From assembly GCA_020440745.1 (NCBI GenBank), contig JAGRNM010000001.1:1-29046 (forward strand): a stretch of 29,046 nucleotides of DNA, written 5' to 3'. The notes beneath the pieces are model-generated. The model worked only from the letters and a program-made list of their open reading frames with translations, was not told the origin of the DNA and searched no databases. How positions within the stretch are numbered: the first letter of the stretch is position 1; the number at the start of each line of letters is the position of its first letter. The stretch comes from Deltaproteobacteria bacterium (GTDB lineage Bacteria; UBA10199; DSSB01). This document shows, piece after piece, positions 6,302 to 29,046 of the stretch. A program made the position numbers and the translations under genes.

Positions 6302-7849
6302 ATGTCCCAACCCATCGTCAACTTAGAGGCTATTATTCAGGATCCCTATGATTTAGCCGTTGCTACAGCTCGTACTTGTTATTCGGCTAAGGGGATTATC
6401 AGAGTTCCTCAAGTTAGATCCACAGAAACAGCTAGGGTGCTTAGGGATAAGATTAGCCACTCTACTAGACAGGCCGGCCATTTAACTACTAGGCAACATG
6501 CTCACTTTGTTTTTTCTTTGGATAAGGTAAGTCGTAATTTTTTATGGTCCTTTTTACACTCCCATCCTTTTTATAATAGCGAGCAAGTCTCCCAGCGTTA
6601 TGTTAAAGTTCAGGCGGGCAACTACACGGTTCCTCCCTTAAAAGAAAAAGCCAAGACTATCTATGAGGCTTGTATCCATCGCCAGATGGAAACCTATGAG
6701 ACACTCAATCAAGTCCTCTATCCCCACGCTCAAGCTGAGTATTTAAAAGTCTTTCCTATCAGGTCAAAGCATTTAGACACCTATGCTAAAGTGATTCGCA
6801 AAAAATGTTTTGAGGTTTCTCGTTATGTTTTGCCGGTAGCCACCCATGCTTATCTGTATCACACTATTTAGGCTTTAACTTTGATGCGTTATTTTCGTTT
6901 GATGGATTATTTTGACACTCCGTGGGAACAACGTTTGGTAGTGAGTCAAATGGTGGATTTAGTTTGTGAAATAGACCCTGAGTTTAGACAAGAACTGACC
7001 GATCCTTATCCCTTAGAGGCAAGTCCTGAATATGCTTTTTTACAAAGTCAAAGACCTAATTTTTTGGCTAAGAAAGAAAGTCTAAAAGAATTTGATGAAT
7101 CTCTAAAAGGACGCCGAGCTCGTTTGATTGATTATAAGATTAATGCTCCTCAAACCTTAGCTTCAGCCGTGCGTTCGGTTTTGGGTTTAAGTGCTTCAGA
7201 AATAAGTGACGAAGCGGCGATTGCTAAAGTTTTAGACCCTCAGCAAAATTCCCAGCTGGGTGATACTTTAAATTTAAATACTCTTTCTAAGTGGGGGCGC
7301 ACTTTAATGCATCCCCATTATACTTTTAGAAAAAAAATCAGTCATACTGCTGACAGCCAAGACCAACGTCATCGGATGACTCCTGCTTCCCGTCCGGTTT
7401 TAAGCGCCCAATATAGCGGGCAGGCCGATTATATCGTGCCTAAATTAATTGAAGAAGTACCTGAGGCCGAAGAAATTTTTAAGGCTTCGATGAAAGAAAC
7501 TTTTGAGACTATTAATCAACTCTTAGAAATGGGAGTCGAAACTCAATTTGCTCTTTATTTGTTACCCAATGCTTTTCCCATTAGATTTGAAGAATCAGGT
7601 GACCTTTTAAATCTTCACCACAAATGGCATTCCCGCGCTTGCTACACGGCTCAAGAAGAAATCTTTTACGCCACGGTGGATGAGTTAGAAGAAGTCAAAG
7701 CGGTCCATCCCCAACTAGTTGAGCATATCTTGGCTCCTTGTTATTTAAGAAAAAGGGCAGGCATCCGTCCGATTTGTCCAGAAGGCGACCGTTTTTGTGG
7801 CGTCAAAGTTTGGGACAAGTCTTTAGAAGAGTATGAGCGCGTGATTTAG
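6302..7849 (+). CDS. thyX: ThyX-like flavin-dependent thymidylate synthase, long single-chain form, interrupted by an in-frame TAG at 6869-6871 (ORFs 6302-6871 and 6881-7849 are in the same frame)
   Basis: The N-terminal part carries the ThyX block ...HAHFVFSLDKVSRNFLWSFL...SEQVSQRY (SxRY motif). The downstream part carries RHR (QDQRHRMTPASRP) and the C-terminal ThyX block ALYLLPNAFPIRFEESGDLLNLHHKWHSRACYTAQEEI. Both parts are in frame 2, separated only by TAG plus 9 nt. Confidence 0.6.
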
Positions 7850-10074: not shown

Positions 10075-10902
10075 TTAAGGAGCGCAAGTATAGACTTTTT
10101 TGTCAGCTTCTAAGTGACACTGACCTGTTGCCTCTTGTTGAAAATATTTTTGTAAGGCCAAGGAAGCTAACTCTTTAAGTTCATGATCCTTAGAAGAACT
10201 GGCTAAGTAATCAAGTAATCCTCGGGCTGCTTCTGGATTTTTAAATTCTCCAGGATAAAGATCTAAAGCCTTTAAGGCGTTTTTATATTGAATATCAAAA
10301 AAACCGGCTTGCTCCAAAAAGGCATTAAGCCCCACCGGTAAGCCTTGGATACCTTCTACCAAAGCCCATCCAATCATCGTGGCTCCACCTTCTCCGCCAA
10401 TCTTTTTTTGAACATAATAGTGATCAAGCTCTACAGCGGCTCCAGGTTTGAGAGCTTTTAGACGTTCCTTGGGGATATCAAGGGTTATTTCAAAGCCTTT
10501 TTCTAAGTGTTCTTCACGAACAGCTCTTTGGCGATTTTCCTCTACTTTTATAGGCAAGATCTTGACGGTGTAATAATTAGGTCGGCGATCTTTAAAAAGA
10601 AGCTTCTTTTTTTCTTTTAATTTTTGGGGATCCTTACCAAAGCGGCCTTCTTCGTAGGCCGTTATTTCTTCTGGTGTTGCTTTACGGATTTCTAAAAGAC
10701 TGCCCAACATTTTATACTCATCAACATTGCCTCTTCTGGGTTGGGTTACAGCCTGATAACCTAGGACAGACTCTTGTAGTGGATTGGGTTTTTCTAAATT
10801 ACGGGCCTGAAGTGGCAGGGTGAACCCTAAAATAAGGGCAGCAATCCCCCAAGTTAGGACGTATTTTTTAGTACTTAAGCTTAGAATACTTAAATTTTGC
10901 AT
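10075..10902 (-). CDS. Hypothetical secreted protein
   Basis: 275 aa. It has an N-terminal signal-peptide-like segment (MQNLSILSLSTKKYVLTWGIAALILGFTLPLQA) and a Lys/Glu-rich central region. I recognise no domain. Confidence 0.5.
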   Translation of the reverse strand: MQNLSILSLSTKKYVLTWGIAALILGFTLPLQARNLEKPNPLQESVLGYQAVTQPRRGNVDEYKMLGSLLEIRKATPEEITAYEEGRFGKDPQKLKEKKKLLFKDRRPNYYTVKILPIKVEENRQRAVREEHLEKGFEITLDIPKERLKALKPGAAVELDHYYVQKKIGGEGGATMIGWALVEGIQGLPVGLNAFLEQAGFFDIQYKNALKALDLYPGEFKNPEAARGLLDYLASSSKDHELKELASLALQKYFQQEATGQCHLEADKKVYTCAP

Positions 10903-11123: not shown

Positions 11124-11837
11124 ATGGCCAAGGTATTGATCTTACAAAACCATCCCGATTTTGACGCTGGTAGCTTTGCCGAAGAACTAAAGAGTCGAGA
11201 AATAGACTTTGACTATCACAAAGTTTTTGAATCGGGCGCTCCCCAACCAGAACTTTTATCAGGCGTTAAGGGTCTGATTATTTTGGGGGGACCTCTAAGC
11301 TTTAGAGTCGATCAGGTGGAGAAAAATCCTAAGCTTTTAGAACAAATTAGTTTTTTAAGAGTTGCTCTAGAAGCACACCAACCCATGATTGCCGTTAGTC
11401 AAGGAGCCTGTCTTTTGGCCGCTGCTCAAGGCGCTTGGGTAGAAAAAGCTCCTAAGGCGGTGACTGGTTGGACTCAAGGGGAGATCTACTCTGATTATTC
11501 TCGCAACAGTGTGATTTATTCCAAAGTAGAAGAAAAGAGAATACCTGCTTTTTCCTATTTAGACACCTTTCATGGTTTCCCCCCCAAGGGGTATTGGTAT
11601 GTCTACCATCCCGATTGTCGCTATTTTTCTTCGGGTATTCATGGTAATTGTTACCTTTTTAACTTTCACCCGGAAGTGACAGAAGCTTTGTTAAAGACTT
11701 GGGTGCAGAAATTCCCTCAGGATTTTGGGGGAGAAGAAGCTGCTCAAGCACTTTTGTCAGGGATTGACAAAAAACTGGACTATTCCAAAGACTTTAGTCG
11801 TAAGATTATTCATGCATTTGCTTCTTTTCTTAGATAA
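11124..11837 (+). CDS. Class-I glutamine amidotransferase-like (GATase1 fold) protein
   Basis: 237 aa with the GATase1-like layout LIILGGPLS ... QPMIAVSQGACLLAAA (nucleophile-elbow-like Cys) ... H-x-E-like C-terminal region. The exact subfamily is unclear. Confidence 0.5.
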   Translation: MAKVLILQNHPDFDAGSFAEELKSREIDFDYHKVFESGAPQPELLSGVKGLIILGGPLSFRVDQVEKNPKLLEQISFLRVALEAHQPMIAVSQGACLLAAAQGAWVEKAPKAVTGWTQGEIYSDYSRNSVIYSKVEEKRIPAFSYLDTFHGFPPKGYWYVYHPDCRYFSSGIHGNCYLFNFHPEVTEALLKTWVQKFPQDFGGEEAAQALLSGIDKKLDYSKDFSRKIIHAFASFLR

Positions 11838-11928: not shown

Positions 11929-13134
11929 ATGAGAAAATTAGTCCTTGTATTGGCCGTGTTATTGGTTGCTTGTCAGCCGCAAGAATCTAACTCCGCTCCT
12001 TCCCAGGAAAAGGAAGCCGTTAAACCTGCTGCTCAGCCTACAGAGGCACCTGCTCAAGCAAAAGAAGCTCCTGCCCCCCAAGCTGCACCTGTGGAGAAGA
12101 CAGCTCCTGTAGAAGAGAAGGATTCGACACAAAACCAAACAGGAGATTCTTTATTTGGTCCTGGAGATCCCAACAAAGTTTTAGCCAAGGTGAATGGAGT
12201 TGAAATCACTGATGCAGAAGTGGTTGAAGAACTAGAACCCAACTTTGCTAATATGCGCAAAAAGCTAGAAGAAGATATTTTAAAACTAAAGCTTAGTGCC
12301 ATTGACAACATGATTGATCGCAAATTGATCGAAGCTGCTGCCAAAGAAGCGGGTAAAAATCCCAATCAATATCTTAGAGAAGAAATAGAAGGAAAAGTAG
12401 CGGACGTTGGTGATGAAGAAGCTCAAGCCTTCTATGAAAAAAATAAACCACGTTTTCAAGGCAGACCCTATAGTCAAGTGGCTGGGGATATTAAAAATCA
12501 GCTAAAAAGTAACCAAGTGCGTATATTCCAGAGTAACTTAATGGAGCGCCTTAATGAAAACGCGGAAATAGAAGTCTACCTAGAGCCTGAACGAGTCCAA
12601 GTAAGCGTTGACGATGATCCTTCTCGAGGTTCTAAGGACGCTCCTGTGACTATTATTGAATTTACCGATTATCAATGTCCCTATTGCGCTAAGGTCAGAC
12701 CAACTTTGGCTCAGGTAAGAAAAGAGTATGGTGATAAAATACACTACGTCTTAAGAGACTTTCCTTTAAGTTTTCACAAAGATGCTCCTAAGGCTGCCGA
12801 GGCTGCTTCCTGTGCGGGAGATCAAGGTAAGTATTGGGAGTACAGCGAACTGCTCTGGAAAAATCAAAAGGCCTTACAACCCAACAAGTTAAAGGAGTAT
12901 GCCAAACAAGTTGGTTTGGATGCTGATAAATTTGGCCAATGTTTAGATAAAAATACTTATGCTGGAGAGGTACGTAAGGACATGAGAGACGGCTCACAAG
13001 CAGGAGTTACAGGCACTCCAGCTTTTTTTATCAATGGACTTAAACTCTCTGGTGCTCAACCCCTTAGTTCCTTTAAAAAAGTCATTGATTCTGAGTTAAA
13101 AAAACAAGCCAGGCAAGATAAGCCTAATAGTTAA
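11929..13134 (+). CDS. DsbA-family thiol:disulfide oxidoreductase lipoprotein with an N-terminal Pro/Ala/Glu-rich linker and a SurA-N/PpiC-like chaperone-type middle region
   Basis: Lipoprotein signal MRKLVLVLAVLLVAC. A low-complexity Ala/Pro/Glu-rich stretch spans roughly residues 20-65. A thioredoxin-fold domain carries the CPYC active site (FTDYQCPYCAK). An AGGAAA RBS lies upstream. Confidence 0.7.
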   Translation: MRKLVLVLAVLLVACQPQESNSAPSQEKEAVKPAAQPTEAPAQAKEAPAPQAAPVEKTAPVEEKDSTQNQTGDSLFGPGDPNKVLAKVNGVEITDAEVVEELEPNFANMRKKLEEDILKLKLSAIDNMIDRKLIEAAAKEAGKNPNQYLREEIEGKVADVGDEEAQAFYEKNKPRFQGRPYSQVAGDIKNQLKSNQVRIFQSNLMERLNENAEIEVYLEPERVQVSVDDDPSRGSKDAPVTIIEFTDYQCPYCAKVRPTLAQVRKEYGDKIHYVLRDFPLSFHKDAPKAAEAASCAGDQGKYWEYSELLWKNQKALQPNKLKEYAKQVGLDADKFGQCLDKNTYAGEVRKDMRDGSQAGVTGTPAFFINGLKLSGAQPLSSFKKVIDSELKKQARQDKPNS

Positions 13135-13232: not shown

Positions 13233-14504
<1,272 letters not shown>

Positions 14505-14623
14505 AAACAACCCTTTCAAAATAGACTTGATATACGATAGACGAAAATTGGCTCCTTTTTTAGTTAGAACAAAGGTTTCGTGTATAAGCTATCGTAGAAT
14601 TTTTTCCTAAGAGGGAAAAATTT

Positions 14624-14708
<85 letters not shown>

Positions 14709-14733
14709 TTTTTTTAGTTTTTGTTTGGTAGAT

Positions 14734-14780
14734 TAAAAAAATCCCGAAACCTTGTAAACAGGTTTCGGGATTTTTATTTT
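14734..14780. terminator. Bidirectional intrinsic terminator between tRNA-Ser (+) and the secreted-protein gene A (-)
   Basis: 11-bp stem ATCCCGAAACC/GGTTTCGGGAT (14741-14771). An A-run lies on the 5' side and TTTTATTTT on the 3' side. Confidence 0.5.
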
Positions 14781-14816
14781 ACAAAGATTCTATTTTAAAA
14801 AACTGACTTCTATTTA

Positions 14817-15665
14817 TTATTGTTTGACTAAAACCCACACGGTAGAAGTCCCTGGAGAAATAGCCATGCCTGCATTGTAGGCGTCTAAGGCTAAAAACTC
14901 TAAAGTAGTTCCAAAAGGAACAGTAATATAATTTTGTAGTCCTTGATCGGTAACAAAATCTTCATATAAAGAACCGATGACGCGACATTGGCTGGTATAC
15001 GCAAAACTAACGTTAGCAGACAGACCAGCGGTGCAAAGTAGCTTTAAAGTATCATTGACTTGTCTTTCTGCAGACCCAGGTAATTGAAAGGAAGAAACTA
15101 GATTAGAATTAGAAGTATTTTGAATAACCACTAAACCTTCTGATTGGGGAATAATGGGAGCAAGAATATTACTGTTGCTAGTGACGGTTGTTGCAACTGG
15201 CTGTCTTATACGATTAACAGTAATCAAATCAGTTGTATTTGTATTAGTCTGAATCGTATTAGCACTTAGACTATTACTGCTTACATGACCATCTACAGTC
15301 ACATCTCCAGTGGTATTAATAGTATCAGTAGAAAAATTTTCTGTATAAATGGTTCTAGAGGCTACTTCATCTAGGTTAGCAGTACCTGTTACGTTTAAGT
15401 CTTGTTCTATGGTAGCTCCACCATGAATTATAGCATCTCTTTGGACGGTTAACCTTCTGTCTGCATGGACGTTGTAGGCGTTTAAATCTCCATCGGCCAC
15501 CACATTACCTTCGGTTAAGACGTCGTTACCTACCAAAACATTGGCAGGAAAACTTTGGTCTAGATTAATAGTAAAGCTAGCCTGAGCAGAGCTTAAACCG
15601 ACTAAGCAAAATAGGGTGCTTAATAGGAGAGTTTGGAAGAGGAGTTTAGTTTTTTTATGTGTCAT
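14817..15665 (-). CDS. Secreted Thr/Ser/Asn-rich protein, paralog A of a local family; conserved C-terminal Cys-loop domain
   Basis: 282 aa. Signal peptide MTHKKTKLLFQTLLLSTLFCLVGLSSAQA. The central region has short degenerate repeats (LNVTGTANLD, INTTGDVTVDG). The C-terminal region LLCTAG...SQCRV...VPFGTTLEF aligns with the C-terminus of ORF B. Confidence 0.6.
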   Translation of the reverse strand: MTHKKTKLLFQTLLLSTLFCLVGLSSAQASFTINLDQSFPANVLVGNDVLTEGNVVADGDLNAYNVHADRRLTVQRDAIIHGGATIEQDLNVTGTANLDEVASRTIYTENFSTDTINTTGDVTVDGHVSSNSLSANTIQTNTNTTDLITVNRIRQPVATTVTSNSNILAPIIPQSEGLVVIQNTSNSNLVSSFQLPGSAERQVNDTLKLLCTAGLSANVSFAYTSQCRVIGSLYEDFVTDQGLQNYITVPFGTTLEFLALDAYNAGMAISPGTSTVWVLVKQ

Positions 15666-15921
15666 AGCCGTTTCCTTTCTGATTTACTTGAAAGAACAAC
15701 AACAATGACGCATCGCTAGGTTAGGGTATGAGTGTTGAATGGGGGCAGAGGAAAGACCCAAGCTTACTTGATTGTAAGCTCTTTGCAGTAGAATGATTGG
15801 AGTGCCTCTTGTTTCCATTGTTGGTAACCCTGCTCTCCCTCTTTTAAGATTTAATAAAAGTAAAAACTTAAAAAGGGAGCAGTAGCTTTGCGTCCCCGAG
15901 TTACCTCGGGTTTGCCTTTGT
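15663..15921 (-). promoter_or_regulatory. Conserved 5' leader/promoter module, copy A
   Basis: Boxes shared with copies B and C, read in minus-strand sense. The hairpin box is AGACAAAGGCAAACCCGAG-GUAA-CUCGGGGACGCAAAGCUACUG, with plus-strand coordinates 15895-15910 for the stem-loop. The other boxes are AGCAGGGTTACC, TGCGTCATTGTTGTTG and GAAAGGAAACGGCT-ATG. Confidence 0.5.
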
Positions 15922-16073
15922 CTTAATGGATTATTTTTAAGAGAGTGTGTCTCTTGTTTAAGAGATCTTGTAAGGGATTTTAAAAAGCGCTGTCTAGTTT
16001 TTTTTATATTTTGTTTAAAAAAAATTCATTATTTTTTGATGCATTGCATCTATTTCTTGTGACTTATTGCATT

Positions 16074-16114
16074 AAAAAAAACCCGAAAGCTTTTTTAAAC
16101 TTTCGGGTTTTTTC
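16074..16114. terminator. Bidirectional intrinsic terminator downstream of secreted-protein gene B (-)
   Basis: Stem ACCCGAAAG/CTTTCGGGT (16081-16108). An A-run lies on one side and a T-run on the other. Confidence 0.5.
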
Positions 16115-16134
16115 ATTTTTTATTGGTTTTATTT

Positions 16135-16827
16135 TTATCTAATTTGGAACCACTTGCCTAACATTCTTTTAAACTCAGTGGTACGACCAAAGTAGACCAT
16201 GGTGCTACTTACTTGGCTTCCATATTTATTAACGAGTGTGTCAAGGTTGTATCCAAAGCTAGTTGCTGGGGCAACGCTACAGTTTGGATAGTTGGTGTAA
16301 TATTGGACAATAATATCAGGTGCCCAACAGGTGAGGGTGACGATGGTTCCGTCTTCAACATTACTAGGTAAACGGAAAGTAGCTGTGGCTCCTGGGCTGA
16401 CACTCGCTCTCATGATCACGTGTCCTAGTTCGGTGATATTAGCATCACTATAGCTGGTGACGTTTTTATAAGGTTCAACTAGTTCACCTCGTTTTAATTT
16501 ACTTAAGTCAGCGCTTCCCGTGATAGTCGCTTGTTCAGCTACTAAAGAAACGAAGTTAGAGTTAGTTCCTGTGACTTCATTTAGGATACTAAGATTACCG
16601 ACTTCCATATCGGAAGCGATTACTTCCACACCATCTCCCCCTAGGACTAAGGTCTCACTTCCTGTAGTCCCTCCAGAGTCTATTCCTTCACTGTCGCCAG
16701 AAAGAGAAATTTGCTCGGTGGTTTTTCCTGCGTCAATGCTTTCTGCTCGGAGACTAAACGGGATGCTTAAGGCAAGCAGGAAGATTAAGGTTAAGGAACG
16801 ATGGAGTGTTTTATATTTTTGTATCAT
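16135..16827 (-). CDS. Secreted Thr/Ser/Gly-rich protein, paralog B (231 aa from Met MIQKYKTL...)
   Basis: The ORF track extends to 16956. The Met at 16827 sits directly after the conserved GAAAGGAAACGGCT RBS box and begins a signal peptide (MIQKYKTLHRSLTLIFLLALSIPFSLRAES). The C-terminal TLTCWAP...PNCSV...VYFGRTTEF aligns with paralog A. Confidence 0.6.
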   Translation of the reverse strand: MIQKYKTLHRSLTLIFLLALSIPFSLRAESIDAGKTTEQISLSGDSEGIDSGGTTGSETLVLGGDGVEVIASDMEVGNLSILNEVTGTNSNFVSLVAEQATITGSADLSKLKRGELVEPYKNVTSYSDANITELGHVIMRASVSPGATATFRLPSNVEDGTIVTLTCWAPDIIVQYYTNYPNCSVAPATSFGYNLDTLVNKYGSQVSSTMVYFGRTTEFKRMLGKWFQIR

Positions 16828-17010
16828 AGCCGTTTCCTTTCCAATGTGGTTTTGAAAAGACAAACAACAATGACGCATGACTGGGGTTAGAAAAATAATT
16901 TTTCCTTTAGGTAACCCTGCTATCCTAGTCTTTGTTTTTTGATTTCTCTTTAACAAAAACTAGGACCAGTAGCTTTGCGTCCCCGAGTTGCCTCGGGTTT
17001 GCCTTTGTCT
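16825..17010 (-). promoter_or_regulatory. Conserved 5' leader/promoter module, copy B (the shortest copy)
   Basis: It has the same ordered boxes as copies A and C. The hairpin is at 16982-16997. In minus-strand sense its loop is GCAA, where A and C have GUAA. Both are GNRA tetraloops. Confidence 0.5.
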
Positions 17011-17082
17011 AGGTTAATAGATGAACTTACAAAGATCGTCTTATTTCACTTGATTTCATTTTAAGAGATAAATACTTGCAAT

Positions 17083-17115
17083 AAAAAAGCCATCCAAGCT
17101 TTTGCTCGGATGGCT
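17083..17115 (-). terminator. Intrinsic terminator oriented for minus-strand transcripts coming from module C
   Basis: In minus-strand sense: hairpin AGCCATCC-(12 nt)-GGATGGCT followed by TTTTTT. It lies about 410 nt downstream of the small ORF stop. Confidence 0.4.
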
Positions 17116-17524
17116 TCCCTTAGATTCTGCTCTTTTTAGTTATTACTTAGAAGCTTTCATCGAGCATTTTCTGGGTTTGGTTCCAATACTTCTTGGGGTT
17201 GTTAAGAAGTATTGGTTTTTACGATTTCTTTTTTTAAAAAAATGTCATCTAGTCTTTAATTTTTTCACTCATTCTCAGTTGCTAGACTGGACTTTCATTT
17301 TAATTTTCAAAGAAACCGTTTTGTCCTTACGGAGAACCTTTGTATTTTTTTTTCATGAACCAGCCTCTATTTTTTTGAGCCTTGTTTTTCCTCTTAGGGT
17401 CTTAAGCTCTGTTAGCGGTTCTAAGTGGGAGGTTAGAGCTGGATCCTAAGGAGTTAAAGGCTAGGCCCTTTTTGCTGGTCATGATTGTTCTCTTCTAAGA
17501 ACACTTCAAGAGCAGCGCTTGGCC

Positions 17525-17635
17525 ATTAAGCCCAGCGAAGTTCTTGCATATAACCATCTAAGTCATTTTGGTTCTTGAAGAACTCAATGCTGTCGGATTT
17601 TTTAAAGAGGTTTTTGATTGCGTTTAGTTTAGTCA
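17525..17635 (-). CDS. 36-codon ORF (MTKLNAIKNLFKKSDSIEFFKNQNDLDGYMQELRWA) directly behind leader module C
   Basis: Its ATG sits in the same position relative to GAAAGGAAACGGCT as the starts of paralogs A and B. It ends at TAA 17525-17527. It has no signal peptide and is below the ORF-track cutoff. Confidence 0.3.
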
Positions 17636-17877
17636 TAGCCGTTTCCTTTCCAATTGGGTTTTGAAAAAGACAACAACAATGACGCTTAGCTTTTACTTAA
17701 GAAGAGGACTCTCTAAGGGAGAGGGAATTTTTTAGATTCCAAGTCGGAGGTTTTTTAAGACTTCGACTTCCATCTTAGGTAACCCTGCTATCCTAGTCTT
17801 TGTTTTTTGATTTCTCTCTAACAAAAGCTAGGACCAGTAGCTTTGCGTCCCCGAGTTACCTCGGGTTTGCCTTTGTC
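17633..17877 (-). promoter_or_regulatory. Conserved 5' leader/promoter module, copy C (carries an extra insert of about 90 nt relative to B)
   Basis: The boxes are near-identical to those of B: 17781-17877 matches 16909-17008 at almost every base. The hairpin is at 17849-17864 with loop GUAA in minus sense. Confidence 0.5.
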
Positions 17878-18208
17878 TAATGGATTGTCAATTTTAGCTT
17901 TTAACGAAGTTTTAGGTTTTTAAGAACCCTAGCGTTTTTTCGTTATCAACTAAAAAAAATTTTAAGAGTTAAAACTAAGAACTGTCAAATTTTTTTTTAA
18001 ATAAGTTTAATAAAAACGCTAGCATAAAAACGTACAGATCTAACAATTGCCTTATTTGGCGCGGGTTTTAAAAGAATTATTTTTTTAAAAAAATTATTAA
18101 TTTTTTATCTTTTTAAAGTCTGTAAAAGTTTGAAAGTGAAAAAAAGGGCTTGTTGATTTTAAAATTAATGAAGCTTTTTGATTTTTAATTGGCTTTAAAA
18201 GATTGTTC

Positions 18209-18967
18209 TTAGGCTTGGGGAGTGGAGTTTTTTAAGAGGAGCTGAAAAGATTTTTTTAAGTTCTCCCGTGCCTGGTGGGCTTTGATGGCTAAGAAGGGTA
18301 AACGGGTTAATAATTTAGGTCTTTTAATACTTTCGCTTAAAAGCCGACCTGCTTGAGACTGGCTATGGGGTTCTAGGAGACTTTCTACTTCTTCTAGGTT
18401 GTCTTTGAGCTCATCAATGACAAAGCGTAAAACCAGTTTGGGTATTTCTAGTTTTTGGGCTGCTTGAAGTACGCCGTGACTTTCCATGTCCACTGCAATG
18501 CCGTCGTATTTAATGGCAAGTGCTTGTTTTTCAATGGGATTTAACAGGGGATGCAGACTACTTAAAAGATTGCCCCGATGGACTTTCCAGCTTTGATTTT
18601 GGCTTAAGAGCTTAAGAGATTCTTCAGTCCAGGCTGGATCGGTGCTTAAGGGTAGGGCGCTAGCTGTATTGGCAACCACAGTAGAGGCTAGGACCAAATC
18701 GCCGGTTTTTAATTGAGAATGGAGGGCACCGCAGTAGCCAGTGCTAATAAGACGACTTAGCTTGAAATTTTCTAAGAGAAAACGCGTAGCCTGGCGGGCT
18801 CGTTTGAGTCCAACTCCTGTTTGTAGCAGGAGAATTTTTTTATCTTGGGCTTCAAATTCTAAGATGCGAAAACCTTGGTAGAGAGTCTGAGTGTAAGCCA
18901 TCCCTTTGGGAACAATGGCCTTGGCTTCATGGGGCAATGCTAGGGTGATGGCCCAGGTTTCTTGCAT
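18209..18967 (-). CDS. PNP/MTAP-superfamily nucleosidase (5'-methylthioadenosine/S-adenosylhomocysteine nucleosidase or futalosine hydrolase-like)
   Basis: 252 aa. Blocks TGVGLKRARQA, ISTGYCGALHSQLKTGD and IAVDMESHGVLQAA...KLVLRFVID parallel the Pfs/MtnN motifs SGIGKVAAA, NTGSAGGL...GD and AVEMEATAIA...VVVRAISD. Confidence 0.65.
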   Translation of the reverse strand: MQETWAITLALPHEAKAIVPKGMAYTQTLYQGFRILEFEAQDKKILLLQTGVGLKRARQATRFLLENFKLSRLISTGYCGALHSQLKTGDLVLASTVVANTASALPLSTDPAWTEESLKLLSQNQSWKVHRGNLLSSLHPLLNPIEKQALAIKYDGIAVDMESHGVLQAAQKLEIPKLVLRFVIDELKDNLEEVESLLEPHSQSQAGRLLSESIKRPKLLTRLPFLAIKAHQARENLKKSFQLLLKNSTPQA

Positions 18968-28409: not shown

Positions 28410-29046
28410 ATGGCAAAAAGTCTGCAGCATCAAGCTTATCAGTGGTTAAGTTATGGTCTGATCCTTGGTTTATGGCTGTTTTTGTTTTTTCCAGTTTTTC
28501 AGTGGCTGGGTGCTAGTTTTTATACCCCTGAGTATCGTTGGCATACGGCTTTATTCATTCTATTAATAGCGGTTTTCTTAAAAAAGATTTTTTCTAAAGA
28601 CTTACCTGATTTTTGTCTTCAGCTTAGATTGATTCCATTTTTTATACTTTTCTTGGGGGTATTAGGCTTTTTAGTAAGCGAGCGCTTCTTGGATATGGAC
28701 TTGGTGTCTTGCTTTTTCTTTGGCTGGGCTAGTTTTGGACTGGCGGGGCTTTTTTTACAAAAGGAGAGGTGGAAAGCCAGTCTTCCTTATTTATTACTAT
28801 TCTTAGCTGTCTTGCCTTTTAGTTTTCATATCGAGACTTTTTTGGGTTTTCCCTTAAGAGTGATCACGGCCAAAGTAGCTTATTATTTTTTTGAATCCAT
28901 AGGGATTCATGGCTTTAACCATGAGTCTATTATTTTGGTAGAAAACAAACTAGCCCATGTGGACTTGCCCTGCAGTGGTTTAAAGAGTCTTTGGGTAGGC
29001 AGCCTCTTTATTTTGGCTTTAAGTGTTTTAGAAAATTATAAAATTA
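28410..29046 (+). CDS. Exosortase/archaeosortase-family (EpsH-like) polytopic membrane protein, 5' part; continues beyond the window end
   Basis: ATG 28410. Frame 3 stays open for 212 codons to the window end. It has several TM segments. The region GIHGFNHESIILVENKLAHVDLPCSGLKSLWVGSLFILAL matches the exosortase core, where the catalytic Cys sits in a CSG-L-[RK]-S-L context after an EGN-like motif. Confidence 0.55.
   Translation, partial: MAKSLQHQAYQWLSYGLILGLWLFLFFPVFQWLGASFYTPEYRWHTALFILLIAVFLKKIFSKDLPDFCLQLRLIPFFILFLGVLGFLVSERFLDMDLVSCFFFGWASFGLAGLFLQKERWKASLPYLLLFLAVLPFSFHIETFLGFPLRVITAKVAYYFFESIGIHGFNHESIILVENKLAHVDLPCSGLKSLWVGSLFILALSVLENYKI

What the first reader, a model, noticed from the sequence alone, without database searches (positions are those of the whole stretch)
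14817..16827. Tandem paralogous secreted Thr/Ser/Asn-rich proteins with a shared C-terminal Cys-loop domain and no recognisable family
Genes A (282 aa) and B (231 aa) both start with signal peptides. Both have a compositionally biased central region with short degenerate repeats such as LNVTGTANLD and TINTTGDVTVDG, which suggests a beta-solenoid or fibre. Their C-terminal domains of about 80 aa can be aligned. LLCTAG-(16)-C...VPFGTTLEF in A lines up with TLTCWAP-(15)-C...VYFGRTTEF in B, with two conserved Cys that probably form a disulfide. Diverged surface-exposed paralogs sitting behind identical regulatory leaders are typical of adhesin, surface-antigen or secreted-effector families. I cannot assign a known family. 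Resemblance to chlamydial Pmp, C1q or phage tail-fibre domains is not convincing. An exosortase gene is present in the window (28410+), but neither protein has a PEP-CTERM-type C-terminus.
Basis: partly seen in the sequence, partly recalled or inferred. Interest (0 to 1): 0.6.

Follow-up and report, generated by a model that had tools for sequence, protein, structure and literature searches.

The report
c-di-GMP riboswitch-controlled orphan secreted proteins
Two neighbouring genes for exported, adhesin-like proteins with no detectable relatives each sit behind a standard c-di-GMP-sensing riboswitch, so they look like an ordinary second-messenger-controlled surface-protein locus in an uncultured bacterium.

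Summary
The two ORFs are real. A is 14817-15665(-), 282 aa. B is 16135-16827(-), 230 aa. Both have signal-peptide-like N-termini, are Thr/Ser-rich (A also Asn-rich), and carry a C-x15-C pair in an alignable C-terminal domain of about 100 aa.

Each is followed by a conserved hairpin that buries the ribosome-binding site and the AUG. There are three such cassettes, not two. The third precedes only a 36-aa ORF. Each cassette ends in its own terminator.

A-B paralogy is not statistically secure at the protein level (BLASTP E=2.1; hhalign P=0.38; shuffle p=0.049 and 0.002). It is supported by homologous cassette flanks on both sides and by shared motifs.

Both proteins are orphans in the searches run here (a 5.8-billion-cluster index for both; for A also every one of 1.84 billion representatives). 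Only A's residues about 40-160 match beta-helix repeats, including those of a trimeric autotransporter adhesin fragment. The C-terminal domain gives only sub-threshold Ig-like/StcE beta-sandwich signals. AlphaFold models were poor.

Best reading: c-di-GMP-controlled, Sec-exported adhesin-like proteins. This is a new member of a known kind. The direction of regulation and the actual function are unknown.

The parts
17959..17988 (-). sigma-70-like promoter TTGACA-18-TAAAAT of the first cassette
   Evidence: 11 of 12 consensus match. The -10 context CTCTTAAAAT recurs at 17058-17072 before cassette B (repeat finder D15).
17774..17880 (-). c-di-GMP class I riboswitch aptamer 1 (cassette S)
   Evidence: Rfam RF03167 (clan CL00126), 67.5 bits, E 3.8e-14, full length.
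17632..17685 (-). conserved hairpin that sequesters the Shine-Dalgarno sequence and AUG, cassette S
   Evidence: RNAfold -18.5 kcal/mol. The arm GCGUCAUUGUUGUUGUCUUUUUC pairs with GGAAAGGAAACGGCUAUGAC.
17526..17636 (-). 36-aa ORF (MTKLNAIKNLFKKSDSIEFFKNQNDLDGYMQELRWA), no signal peptide
   Evidence: Same SD-ATG context as A and B. No family hit.
17083..17116 (-). intrinsic terminator of cassette S
   Evidence: 13-bp stem followed by a U run, -22.3 kcal/mol.
16906..17012 (-). c-di-GMP class I riboswitch aptamer 2 (cassette B)
   Evidence: Rfam RF03167, 68.8 bits, E 1.6e-14. 97% identical to aptamer 1.
16823..16876 (-). SD/AUG-sequestering hairpin, cassette B
   Evidence: -17.0 kcal/mol. Mean P(unpaired) of SD..AUG is 0.14 in the full leader.
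16135..16827 (-). gene B, 230 aa. Signal peptide is residues 1-28 (16744-16827). An acidic Gly/Ser/Thr-rich N-terminal half follows. The C-terminal domain is about residues 135-230 (16138-16425) with C167 and C183.
   Evidence: Orphan.
16074..16110 (-). intrinsic terminator of cassette B
   Evidence: 14-bp stem followed by a U run, -17.8 kcal/mol. With its flanks it is 71% identical to A's terminator region over 65 nt (D3).
15819..15925 (-). c-di-GMP class I riboswitch aptamer 3 (cassette A)
   Evidence: Rfam RF03167, 63.4 bits, E 5.9e-13. The P2 extension differs in sequence from aptamers 1 and 2 but still folds as a long helix.
15661..15711 (-). SD/AUG-sequestering hairpin, cassette A
   Evidence: -15.6 kcal/mol. 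The arms are conserved and the loop has diverged.
14817..15665 (-). gene A, 282 aa. Signal peptide is residues 1-29 (15579-15665). The beta-helix-like repeat region is about residues 40-160 (15186-15548). The C-terminal domain is about residues 176-282 (14820-15140) with C211 and C227.
   Evidence: Orphan apart from the repeat hits.
14735..14771 (-). intrinsic terminator of cassette A
   Evidence: 12-bp stem followed by a U run, -19.4 kcal/mol.
14623..14709 (+). tRNA-Ser(UGA). Marks the boundary of the variable locus that holds the three cassettes.
   Evidence: ARAGORN and Rfam. serS-tRNA-Ser is syntenic in relatives, but the DNA downstream differs in each of them.

Best explanation
The interval between tRNA-Ser and a phosphorylase-family gene holds three head-to-tail, separately terminated cassettes on the minus strand. 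The first has a strong promoter match, the other two only weaker -10-like elements. Each cassette consists of a c-di-GMP class I riboswitch aptamer, a conserved hairpin that buries the Shine-Dalgarno sequence and start codon, an ORF, and an intrinsic terminator. Two of the ORFs (A and B) encode Sec-type signal-peptide proteins.

A is a beta-helix/solenoid stalk followed by a beta-sandwich-like domain of about 100 aa that carries a C-x15-C pair. B has an acidic Gly/Ser/Thr-rich, probably unstructured N-terminal half followed by the same kind of C-terminal domain.

Most likely the whole cassette was duplicated. The leader and terminator stayed under selection while the exported proteins diverged almost beyond recognition.

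What is shown: the aptamers, hairpins, terminators and ORFs; the orphan status; and A's similarity to adhesin-type solenoid repeats.

What is inferred: intracellular c-di-GMP sets how much A, B and the 36-aa peptide are made. A and B are exported, oxidised to a disulfide-stabilised fold, and act outside the cytoplasm as adhesive or matrix/surface proteins during the c-di-GMP-governed lifestyle switch.

The direction of the switch (ON or OFF with c-di-GMP) and the way the aptamer couples to the hairpin are not resolved.
For: - Rfam finds three full-length aptamers, 63-69 bits, E 1e-13 to 1e-14, and nothing else in the region at E<=1 apart from tRNA-Ser and chance or terminator hits.
- Read directly from the alignments, all three aptamers carry GACGCAAAGC and GGGUUACC, where the GGC-variant model has G at two conserved positions. 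Other genomes' aptamers with the same GACGCAAAGC core are assigned to RF01051 or RF03167 by score competition.
- A conserved SD/AUG hairpin occurs in all three leaders, -15.6 to -18.5 kcal/mol, with conserved arms and diverged loops.
- Terminators follow each ORF.
- Leaders and terminators are both repeated between cassettes (D1-D3).
- Signal-peptide features and the Cys pattern.
- A 40-160 matches the repeats of a YadA-type adhesin fragment (phmmer E 4.7e-14, BLASTP 3e-9) and of a giant repeat protein.
- A has weak FapA/bactofilin beta-helix Pfam hits. All of A's Foldseek matches are far from significant (best E 0.43); most of them, including the top hits, are beta-helix proteins.
- Both C-terminal domains hit PF20944 in the same register. 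The weak B model finds StcE 132-251 and CpaA beta-sandwich domains.
- Precedent: class I and II c-di-GMP riboswitches control adhesins, a secreted protease and families of small proteins in C. difficile (PMC11477304; bioRxiv 10.64898/2026.06.10.731418).
Against: - No homologue exists to show conservation of the proteins.
- A-B similarity is statistically marginal.
- AlphaFold models are poor (pLDDT 41 and 37), so the fold hits are unreliable, and none reaches E<=1e-3.
- No secretion, anchoring or assembly genes lie nearby, and there is no outer-membrane targeting signal. In a diderm the proteins may simply stay periplasmic.
- Aptamer and hairpin coexist in the MFE folds. The two candidate switching pairings I tested are no better than shuffled controls.
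- No riboswitch or A/B-like gene occurs at the syntenic site of relatives.
Confidence: 0.6

Rival explanations
1. A and B are unrelated proteins that merely share a reusable regulatory cassette (riboswitch leader plus terminator). Their C-terminal resemblance, including the Cys pair, is chance or convergence.
For: BLASTP E=2.1. hhalign P=0.38. The N-terminal halves show no similarity (p=0.47). The same leader also precedes an unrelated 36-aa ORF.
Against: The C-x15-C spacing is identical. Shared motifs are FxLP, LxCxA, CxV, VxFGxTxEF and a terminal W. BLOSUM45 shuffle p=0.002. Both proteins hit the same Pfam model in the same register. Both the 5' and 3' flanks are homologous.
Confidence: 0.25
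2. A and B are periplasmic proteins of a diderm cell (for example binding, stress or envelope-remodelling proteins) rather than surface adhesins. c-di-GMP control reflects envelope changes, not adhesion.
For: They have only a Sec signal peptide. There is no lipobox, autotransporter barrel, PEP-CTERM tail or neighbouring secretion genes. Function could not be assigned by any library.
Against: A's solenoid repeats resemble those of adhesin passengers. Stalk-plus-beta-sandwich tip is a typical adhesin or fibre layout. The known riboswitch-controlled exported proteins listed for C. difficile include adhesins and a secreted protease (PMC11477304).
Confidence: 0.2
3. The cassettes are cargo of a mobile element or prophage remnant integrated at tRNA-Ser, and A and B are tail-fibre or receptor-binding-type proteins.
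For: The locus lies directly next to tRNA-Ser. This site is variable among relatives, and one relative has an integrase there. The top Foldseek rows for the weak B model include tailspikes.
Against: The window has no integrase, phage or transfer genes. No direct repeat of the tRNA end was reported. There are no PHROGs hits and no tblastn hit in 50,697 phage records. The tailspike matches have rmsd above 15 A and come from a low-confidence model.
Confidence: 0.05

Closest known systems
c-di-GMP class I (GEMM-I) riboswitch regulons, e.g. Vibrio cholerae Vc1/gbpA and the C. difficile class I set (flagellar operon, CD2797 adhesin, PPEP-1 protease, several small hypothetical proteins)
   Same: The aptamer is a full-length match to the c-di-GMP-I clan. 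It sits in the 5' UTR of genes for exported or surface proteins and of a very small ORF. C. difficile has the same arrangement: several class I riboswitches precede small proteins, an adhesin and a secreted protease (PMC11477304; bioRxiv 10.64898/2026.06.10.731418).
   Different: The described C. difficile class I elements act by premature transcription termination. Here no convincing terminator lies between aptamer and ORF. A 15-19 bp hairpin buries the SD and AUG instead, and coupling to the aptamer is unresolved. The host is an uncultured 'Deltaproteobacteria'-labelled lineage. The regulated proteins are orphans.
Rfam RF03167 c-di-GMP-I-GGC variant
   Same: It is the best-scoring Rfam model for all three aptamers, at 63-69 bits against a gathering score of 59.
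   Different: At the two conserved G positions that distinguish the variant consensus (GACGCGAAGC and GcUGCc), the window aptamers carry A (GACGCAAAGC, GGGUUACC). From my own knowledge these are the usual c-di-GMP-I nucleotides. Other aptamers with the same GACGCAAAGC core flip between RF01051 and RF03167. The label is therefore a result of model competition and is not evidence of altered ligand specificity.
Trimeric autotransporter adhesins (YadA family) and other beta-helix adhesin passengers
   Same: A residues about 40-100 align with the 35-aa repeats of a YadA_head/YadA_stalk-containing protein, e.g. GGATIEQDLNVTGTANLDE against GNATIEKDLTVNGTSNLKD.
   Different: A has no YadA head, stalk or membrane-anchor domain and is only 282 aa. 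The similarity is confined to a solenoid repeat motif.
StcE/CpaA-type Ig-like beta-sandwich domains (Pfam PF20944)
   Same: Both C-terminal domains give their best Pfam hit to this model in the same register (E 0.005-0.18). Foldseek on the weak B model finds StcE 132-251 and CpaA (E about 7e-3).
   Different: All scores are below the family thresholds (13-17 bits against a cutoff of 27). The structural model is low confidence. No metalloprotease domain is present. The A/B profile also matches the generic strand A-B motif of antibody V domains, so this is fold-level resemblance at most.

Membership tests
c-di-GMP class I riboswitch (Rfam clan CL00126) | Full-length covariance-model match above the gathering score | tested here: met
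   Three matches, 63.4-68.8 bits (gathering 59), model positions 1-80 of 80.
c-di-GMP class I riboswitch (Rfam clan CL00126) | Ligand-contacting nucleotides G20, A47 and C92 (Vc2 numbering, from my knowledge of the Vc2 structure) and a GNRA tetraloop on P1a | tested here: met
   Read from the alignments. The unpaired G before the GC pair is present. A follows GACGC. The junction AC in GGGUUACC is present. The loops are GUAA or GCAA.
c-di-GMP class I riboswitch (Rfam clan CL00126) | Binds c-di-GMP and changes expression of the downstream gene | not testable with these tools
   Needs in-line probing or ITC and reporter assays.
c-di-GMP-I-GGC variant (RF03167) as a distinct specificity class | G in place of A at the conserved variant positions (GCGAAG, UGCC) | tested here: not met
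   All three aptamers have A at both positions (alignments). Aptamers from other genomes that share the GACGCAAAGC core are split between RF01051 and RF03167.
Sec-exported protein | N-terminal signal peptide with n-, h- and c-regions and a small-x-small cleavage site | tested here: inconclusive
   The features are present by inspection and hydropathy. No SignalP-type predictor was available.
Trimeric autotransporter adhesin | YadA-type head/stalk domains and a C-terminal membrane anchor | tested here: not met
   No such Pfam or NCBIfam hits in A or B. Only repeat-level similarity to a TAA fragment.
Bactofilin / FapA beta-helix families | Pfam match above the gathering score | tested here: not met
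   FapA 17.2 bits (cutoff 31). Bactofilin 13.5 bits (cutoff 27.9).
StcE_b-sandwich (PF20944) | Pfam match above the gathering score | tested here: not met
   12.3-17.3 bits against a cutoff of 27.
PEP-CTERM / exosortase substrate | C-terminal PEP motif, hydrophobic helix and a basic tail | tested here: not met
   A ends ...TSTVWVLVKQ and B ends ...MLGKWFQIR. The exosortase gene itself is present at 28410+.
Phage tail fibre / tailspike | Sequence or profile similarity to phage structural proteins | tested here: not met
   No PHROGs hit. No tblastn hit in 50,697 phage records.
   Neither family appears in the Pfam scan even at E<=10.

The most novel reading that the evidence does not exclude
A and B found a lineage-restricted family of c-di-GMP-controlled surface fibres. 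Their tip is a previously undescribed disulfide-clamped (C-x15-C) beta-sandwich domain. Their leaders represent an undescribed translational expression platform for class I c-di-GMP riboswitches: a start-codon-burying hairpin placed 30-115 nt from the aptamer.
Probability: 0.2. Interest if true: 0.45.

Novelty: new member of a known kind. Interest (0 to 1): 0.3.

Why it matters
The main gain is a testable regulatory handle on two hypothetical proteins. Their expression should follow the c-di-GMP level, which points to a role in the switch between motile and attached life in an uncultured lineage.

The three cassettes also show how a riboswitch leader and a terminator can stay conserved while the exported proteins between them diverge past recognition.

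The start-codon-sequestering hairpin could be informative for how class I c-di-GMP riboswitches control translation.

None of this overturns current understanding. c-di-GMP riboswitches in front of adhesins, secreted proteins and small ORFs are well documented.

Tried and rejected
1. Homologue searches.
- The word-indexed search of 5.8 billion clusters for A and B returned only the query itself.
- Full HMMER of A against 1.84 billion representatives returned only repeat-protein hits: P0003, P0004, and a probably spurious RTX-like P0005.
- B could not be given the full HMMER search.

2. Structure.
- AlphaFold on A alone gave pLDDT 41. On B with A as an alignment row it gave pLDDT 37. Both are too poor to use.
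- Foldseek on both models found nothing at E<=1e-3.

3. Looking for more cassettes through the RNA.
- My genome-collection scan used too generic an aptamer pattern. tblastn of A, B and the small ORF against those 120 loci found nothing.
- Two metagenome scans found nothing: the exact 38-nt aptamer core and the leader-hairpin pattern.

4. Third paralogue in the window: none. ORFs 10075-10902 and 11124-11837 are unrelated.

5. Switching mechanism.
- I tested whether the pyrimidine arm of the hairpin pairs with the aptamer's purine core. The result was no better than shuffled arms (p=0.11-0.55).
- I tested whether linker segments pair with the aptamer's 3' part. The result was no better than shuffled linkers (p=0.20-0.65).
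- Both ideas are dropped as evidence.

6. Synteny. Relatives keep DsbA-like, serS and tRNA-Ser, but have neither riboswitches nor A/B-like genes there.

7. Literature. The original description of the GGC variant (Weinberg et al. 2017, PNAS) is not in the held library. What I say about the variant's defining nucleotides rests on the Rfam consensus shown and on my own recollection.

8. The look-up of encoding contigs for protein A: not on record.
Full report
**What is in the sequence.**

- A is 14817-15665, 282 aa.
- B runs from ATG 16827 to stop 16135, 230 aa.
- The longest form of ORF B starts at TTG 16956. That start lies inside a structured RNA. The ATG shares an invariant GGAAAGGAAACGGCTATGA context with A, so the ATG is the start.

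Both proteins begin with a basic stretch, a hydrophobic core and a small-residue cleavage motif (AQA|S in A, LRA|E in B). A is 12.8% Thr, 8.9% Ser and 8.5% Asn. B is 10.9% Ser, 10.4% Thr and 8.7% Gly. Each mature protein has exactly two cysteines, 16 positions apart (A C211/C227, B C167/C183). I had no dedicated signal-peptide predictor, so export is a strong inference, not a test.

**The 'identical regulatory leaders' are riboswitches, and there are three.**

Rfam finds three full-length c-di-GMP class I aptamers on the minus strand, at 17880-17774, 17012-16906 and 15925-15819. Scores are 63-69 bits and E-values 1e-13 to 1e-14. A permissive scan of 14500-18250 adds only tRNA-Ser and chance or terminator hits.

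The best-scoring model is the 'GGC' variant (RF03167). However, at the two conserved G positions of that consensus (GACGCGAAGC and GcUGCc) the window aptamers have A (GACGCAAAGC, GGGUUACC). By the model's structure line, the unpaired G before the GC pair, the A after GACGC and the junction AC are all present. These correspond to G20, A47 and A91/C92 of the Vibrio Vc2 riboswitch; that mapping is my own knowledge. Aptamers from other genomes with the same GACGCAAAGC core are called RF01051 in some cases and RF03167 in others. I therefore read these as ordinary c-di-GMP-I aptamers. I could not consult the paper that defined the variant.

Aptamers 1 and 2 are 97% identical. Aptamer 3 is about 70% identical and has a different P2 extension that still folds as a long helix.

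**Cassette anatomy.**

Just before each start codon lies a second conserved element. The sequence GCGUCAUUGUUGUUGU(C/U)CUUUUC pairs with GGAAAGGAAACGGCUAUGAC, forming a 15-19 bp hairpin (-15.6 to -18.5 kcal/mol).
- It buries the Shine-Dalgarno sequence and the AUG.
- The probability that SD..AUG is unpaired is 0.10-0.17 in the full leaders.
- The arms are conserved while the loops differ.

Each ORF is followed by a strong intrinsic terminator: 17116-17083, 16110-16074 and 14771-14735. A's and B's terminators with their flanks are 71% identical over 65 nt.

A near-consensus promoter (TTGACA-18-TAAAAT, 17988-17959) precedes the first aptamer. Weaker -10-like elements precede the other two.

The first cassette encodes only a 36-aa ORF without a signal peptide (17636-17526). 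About 410 nt with no ORF of 30 aa or more on that strand follow before its terminator.

**Are A and B paralogues?**

At the protein level the evidence is marginal.
- Shuffling gives p=0.049 (BLOSUM62) and p=0.002 (BLOSUM45) for the C-terminal parts, and p=0.47 for the N-terminal parts.
- Single-sequence hhalign gives P=0.38.

In favour of common descent:
- identical C-x15-C spacing;
- shared FxLP, LxCxA, CxV and VxFGxTxEF motifs and a terminal Trp;
- the same weak Pfam hit (PF20944) in the same register for both;
- homologous DNA on both sides of the ORFs (leader and terminator).

I consider whole-cassette duplication followed by fast divergence of the coding part the likelier history, at roughly 3:1 over unrelated ORFs in a reused cassette.

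**What the proteins resemble.**

Nothing reaches a family threshold in Pfam, NCBIfam, PHROGs, PADLOC, PDB sequences or phage genomes. Each protein finds only itself among 5.8 billion clusters. The source is an NCBI MAG labelled 'Deltaproteobacteria bacterium', and the contig equals the window.

A full HMMER pass of A over 1.84 billion representatives adds three repeat proteins.
- P0003 is a fragment with YadA_head and YadA_stalk domains. Its 35-aa repeats align with A 41-100 (BLASTP 3e-9).
- P0004 is a giant protein with 32-aa repeats that aligns with A 49-165.
- P0005 is an RTX-like protein. I treat this hit as spurious.

Together with weak FapA and bactofilin hits, and with far-from-significant Foldseek matches for A (best E 0.43) that are mostly to beta-helix proteins, this supports a beta-helix stalk in A. 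B shows no such signal, and AlphaFold leaves its N-terminal half unstructured.

The C-terminal domain gives only sub-threshold hints of an Ig-like beta-sandwich:
- PF20944;
- StcE 132-251 and CpaA with the weak B model (E about 7e-3);
- the strand A-B motif of antibody V domains with an A/B profile.

Both AlphaFold models are poor (pLDDT 41 and 37), so I treat the fold as unassigned.

**Genomic context.**

SerS relatives (79%, then 73% identity and below) are all uncultured. Those that carry an organism name are labelled 'Deltaproteobacteria bacterium' (for example PRO3, RIFCSPLOWO2_02_FULL_46_8, CG11_..._49_13) or just 'bacterium'.

Three relatives keep the DsbA-like, serS, tRNA-Ser order. 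Each has different DNA after the tRNA. One has two other secreted Cys-containing proteins, tRNAs and an integrase there. None has a c-di-GMP riboswitch there.

The cassettes therefore occupy a variable, island-prone site. The window itself holds no mobility genes. The DsbA-like gene is syntenic with serS even where A and B are absent, so it is not specifically linked to them. The exosortase fragment at 28410+ is real, but A and B lack PEP-CTERM tails.

**How it most likely works.**

Shown:
- three separately terminated units, each with a c-di-GMP-I aptamer and a hairpin that occludes translation initiation;
- two of them encode signal-peptide proteins, one with an adhesin-type solenoid.

Inferred:
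- c-di-GMP concentration sets the output of A, B and the small peptide;
- A and B are exported by Sec and oxidised at the Cys pair;
- they act as adhesive, matrix or surface proteins.

This fits the known use of c-di-GMP riboswitches in front of adhesins, a secreted protease, pili and families of small proteins in C. difficile (PMC11477304; bioRxiv 10.64898/2026.06.10.731418).

The sign of regulation is open. The aptamer and hairpin coexist in the MFE folds. No convincing terminator lies between them. The two alternative pairings I examined are no better than shuffled controls.

**Verdict.**

The key feature, the riboswitches, was missed. The paralogy is weaker than stated.

This is a new member of a known kind: c-di-GMP riboswitch-controlled exported proteins. 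The proteins themselves are orphans of unknown fold. Interest is modest. What remains unusual is the orphan C-terminal domain and the unresolved coupling between the aptamer and the hairpin.

Noticed in passing
window 17526-17880 and 17083-17525 (-): A third riboswitch cassette encodes only a 36-aa ORF without a signal peptide. About 410 nt with no ORF of 30 aa or more on that strand follow before the terminator. This could be a decayed paralogue or a functional RNA or small protein. A 12-14 bp perfect hairpin lies at 17183-17215.
   Followed up: partly
window 6302-6868 and 6881-7846 (+): Two adjacent ORFs both match Pfam Thy1 (ThyX). This is either a split gene or a tandem duplicate.
   Followed up: no
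window 28410-29046 (+): An exosortase EpsH-family gene (PF09721, E 8e-15), truncated by the contig end. No PEP-CTERM substrate was recognised among the ORFs I looked at.
   Followed up: partly
window 11929-13131 (+); L121 8942-9991; L122 4332-5396; L123 8873-9919: A DsbA-like thioredoxin protein with a SurA_N-like N-terminal part is conserved immediately upstream of serS in this lineage.
   Followed up: partly
L122 6967-9922: At the same post-tRNA-Ser site, a relative carries two secreted Cys-containing proteins that share an N[LI]PVCVVS motif, two further tRNAs and a phage-type integrase. The site is an integration hot spot.
   Followed up: partly
L072 1213-1630: A Desulfobulbaceae MAG contig has three c-di-GMP-I aptamers in direct tandem about 160 nt apart, in a single leader.
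   Followed up: no
L004 1-83 and 5145-5234: A Paenibacillus contig carries a class II and a class I c-di-GMP riboswitch within 5 kb.
   Followed up: no
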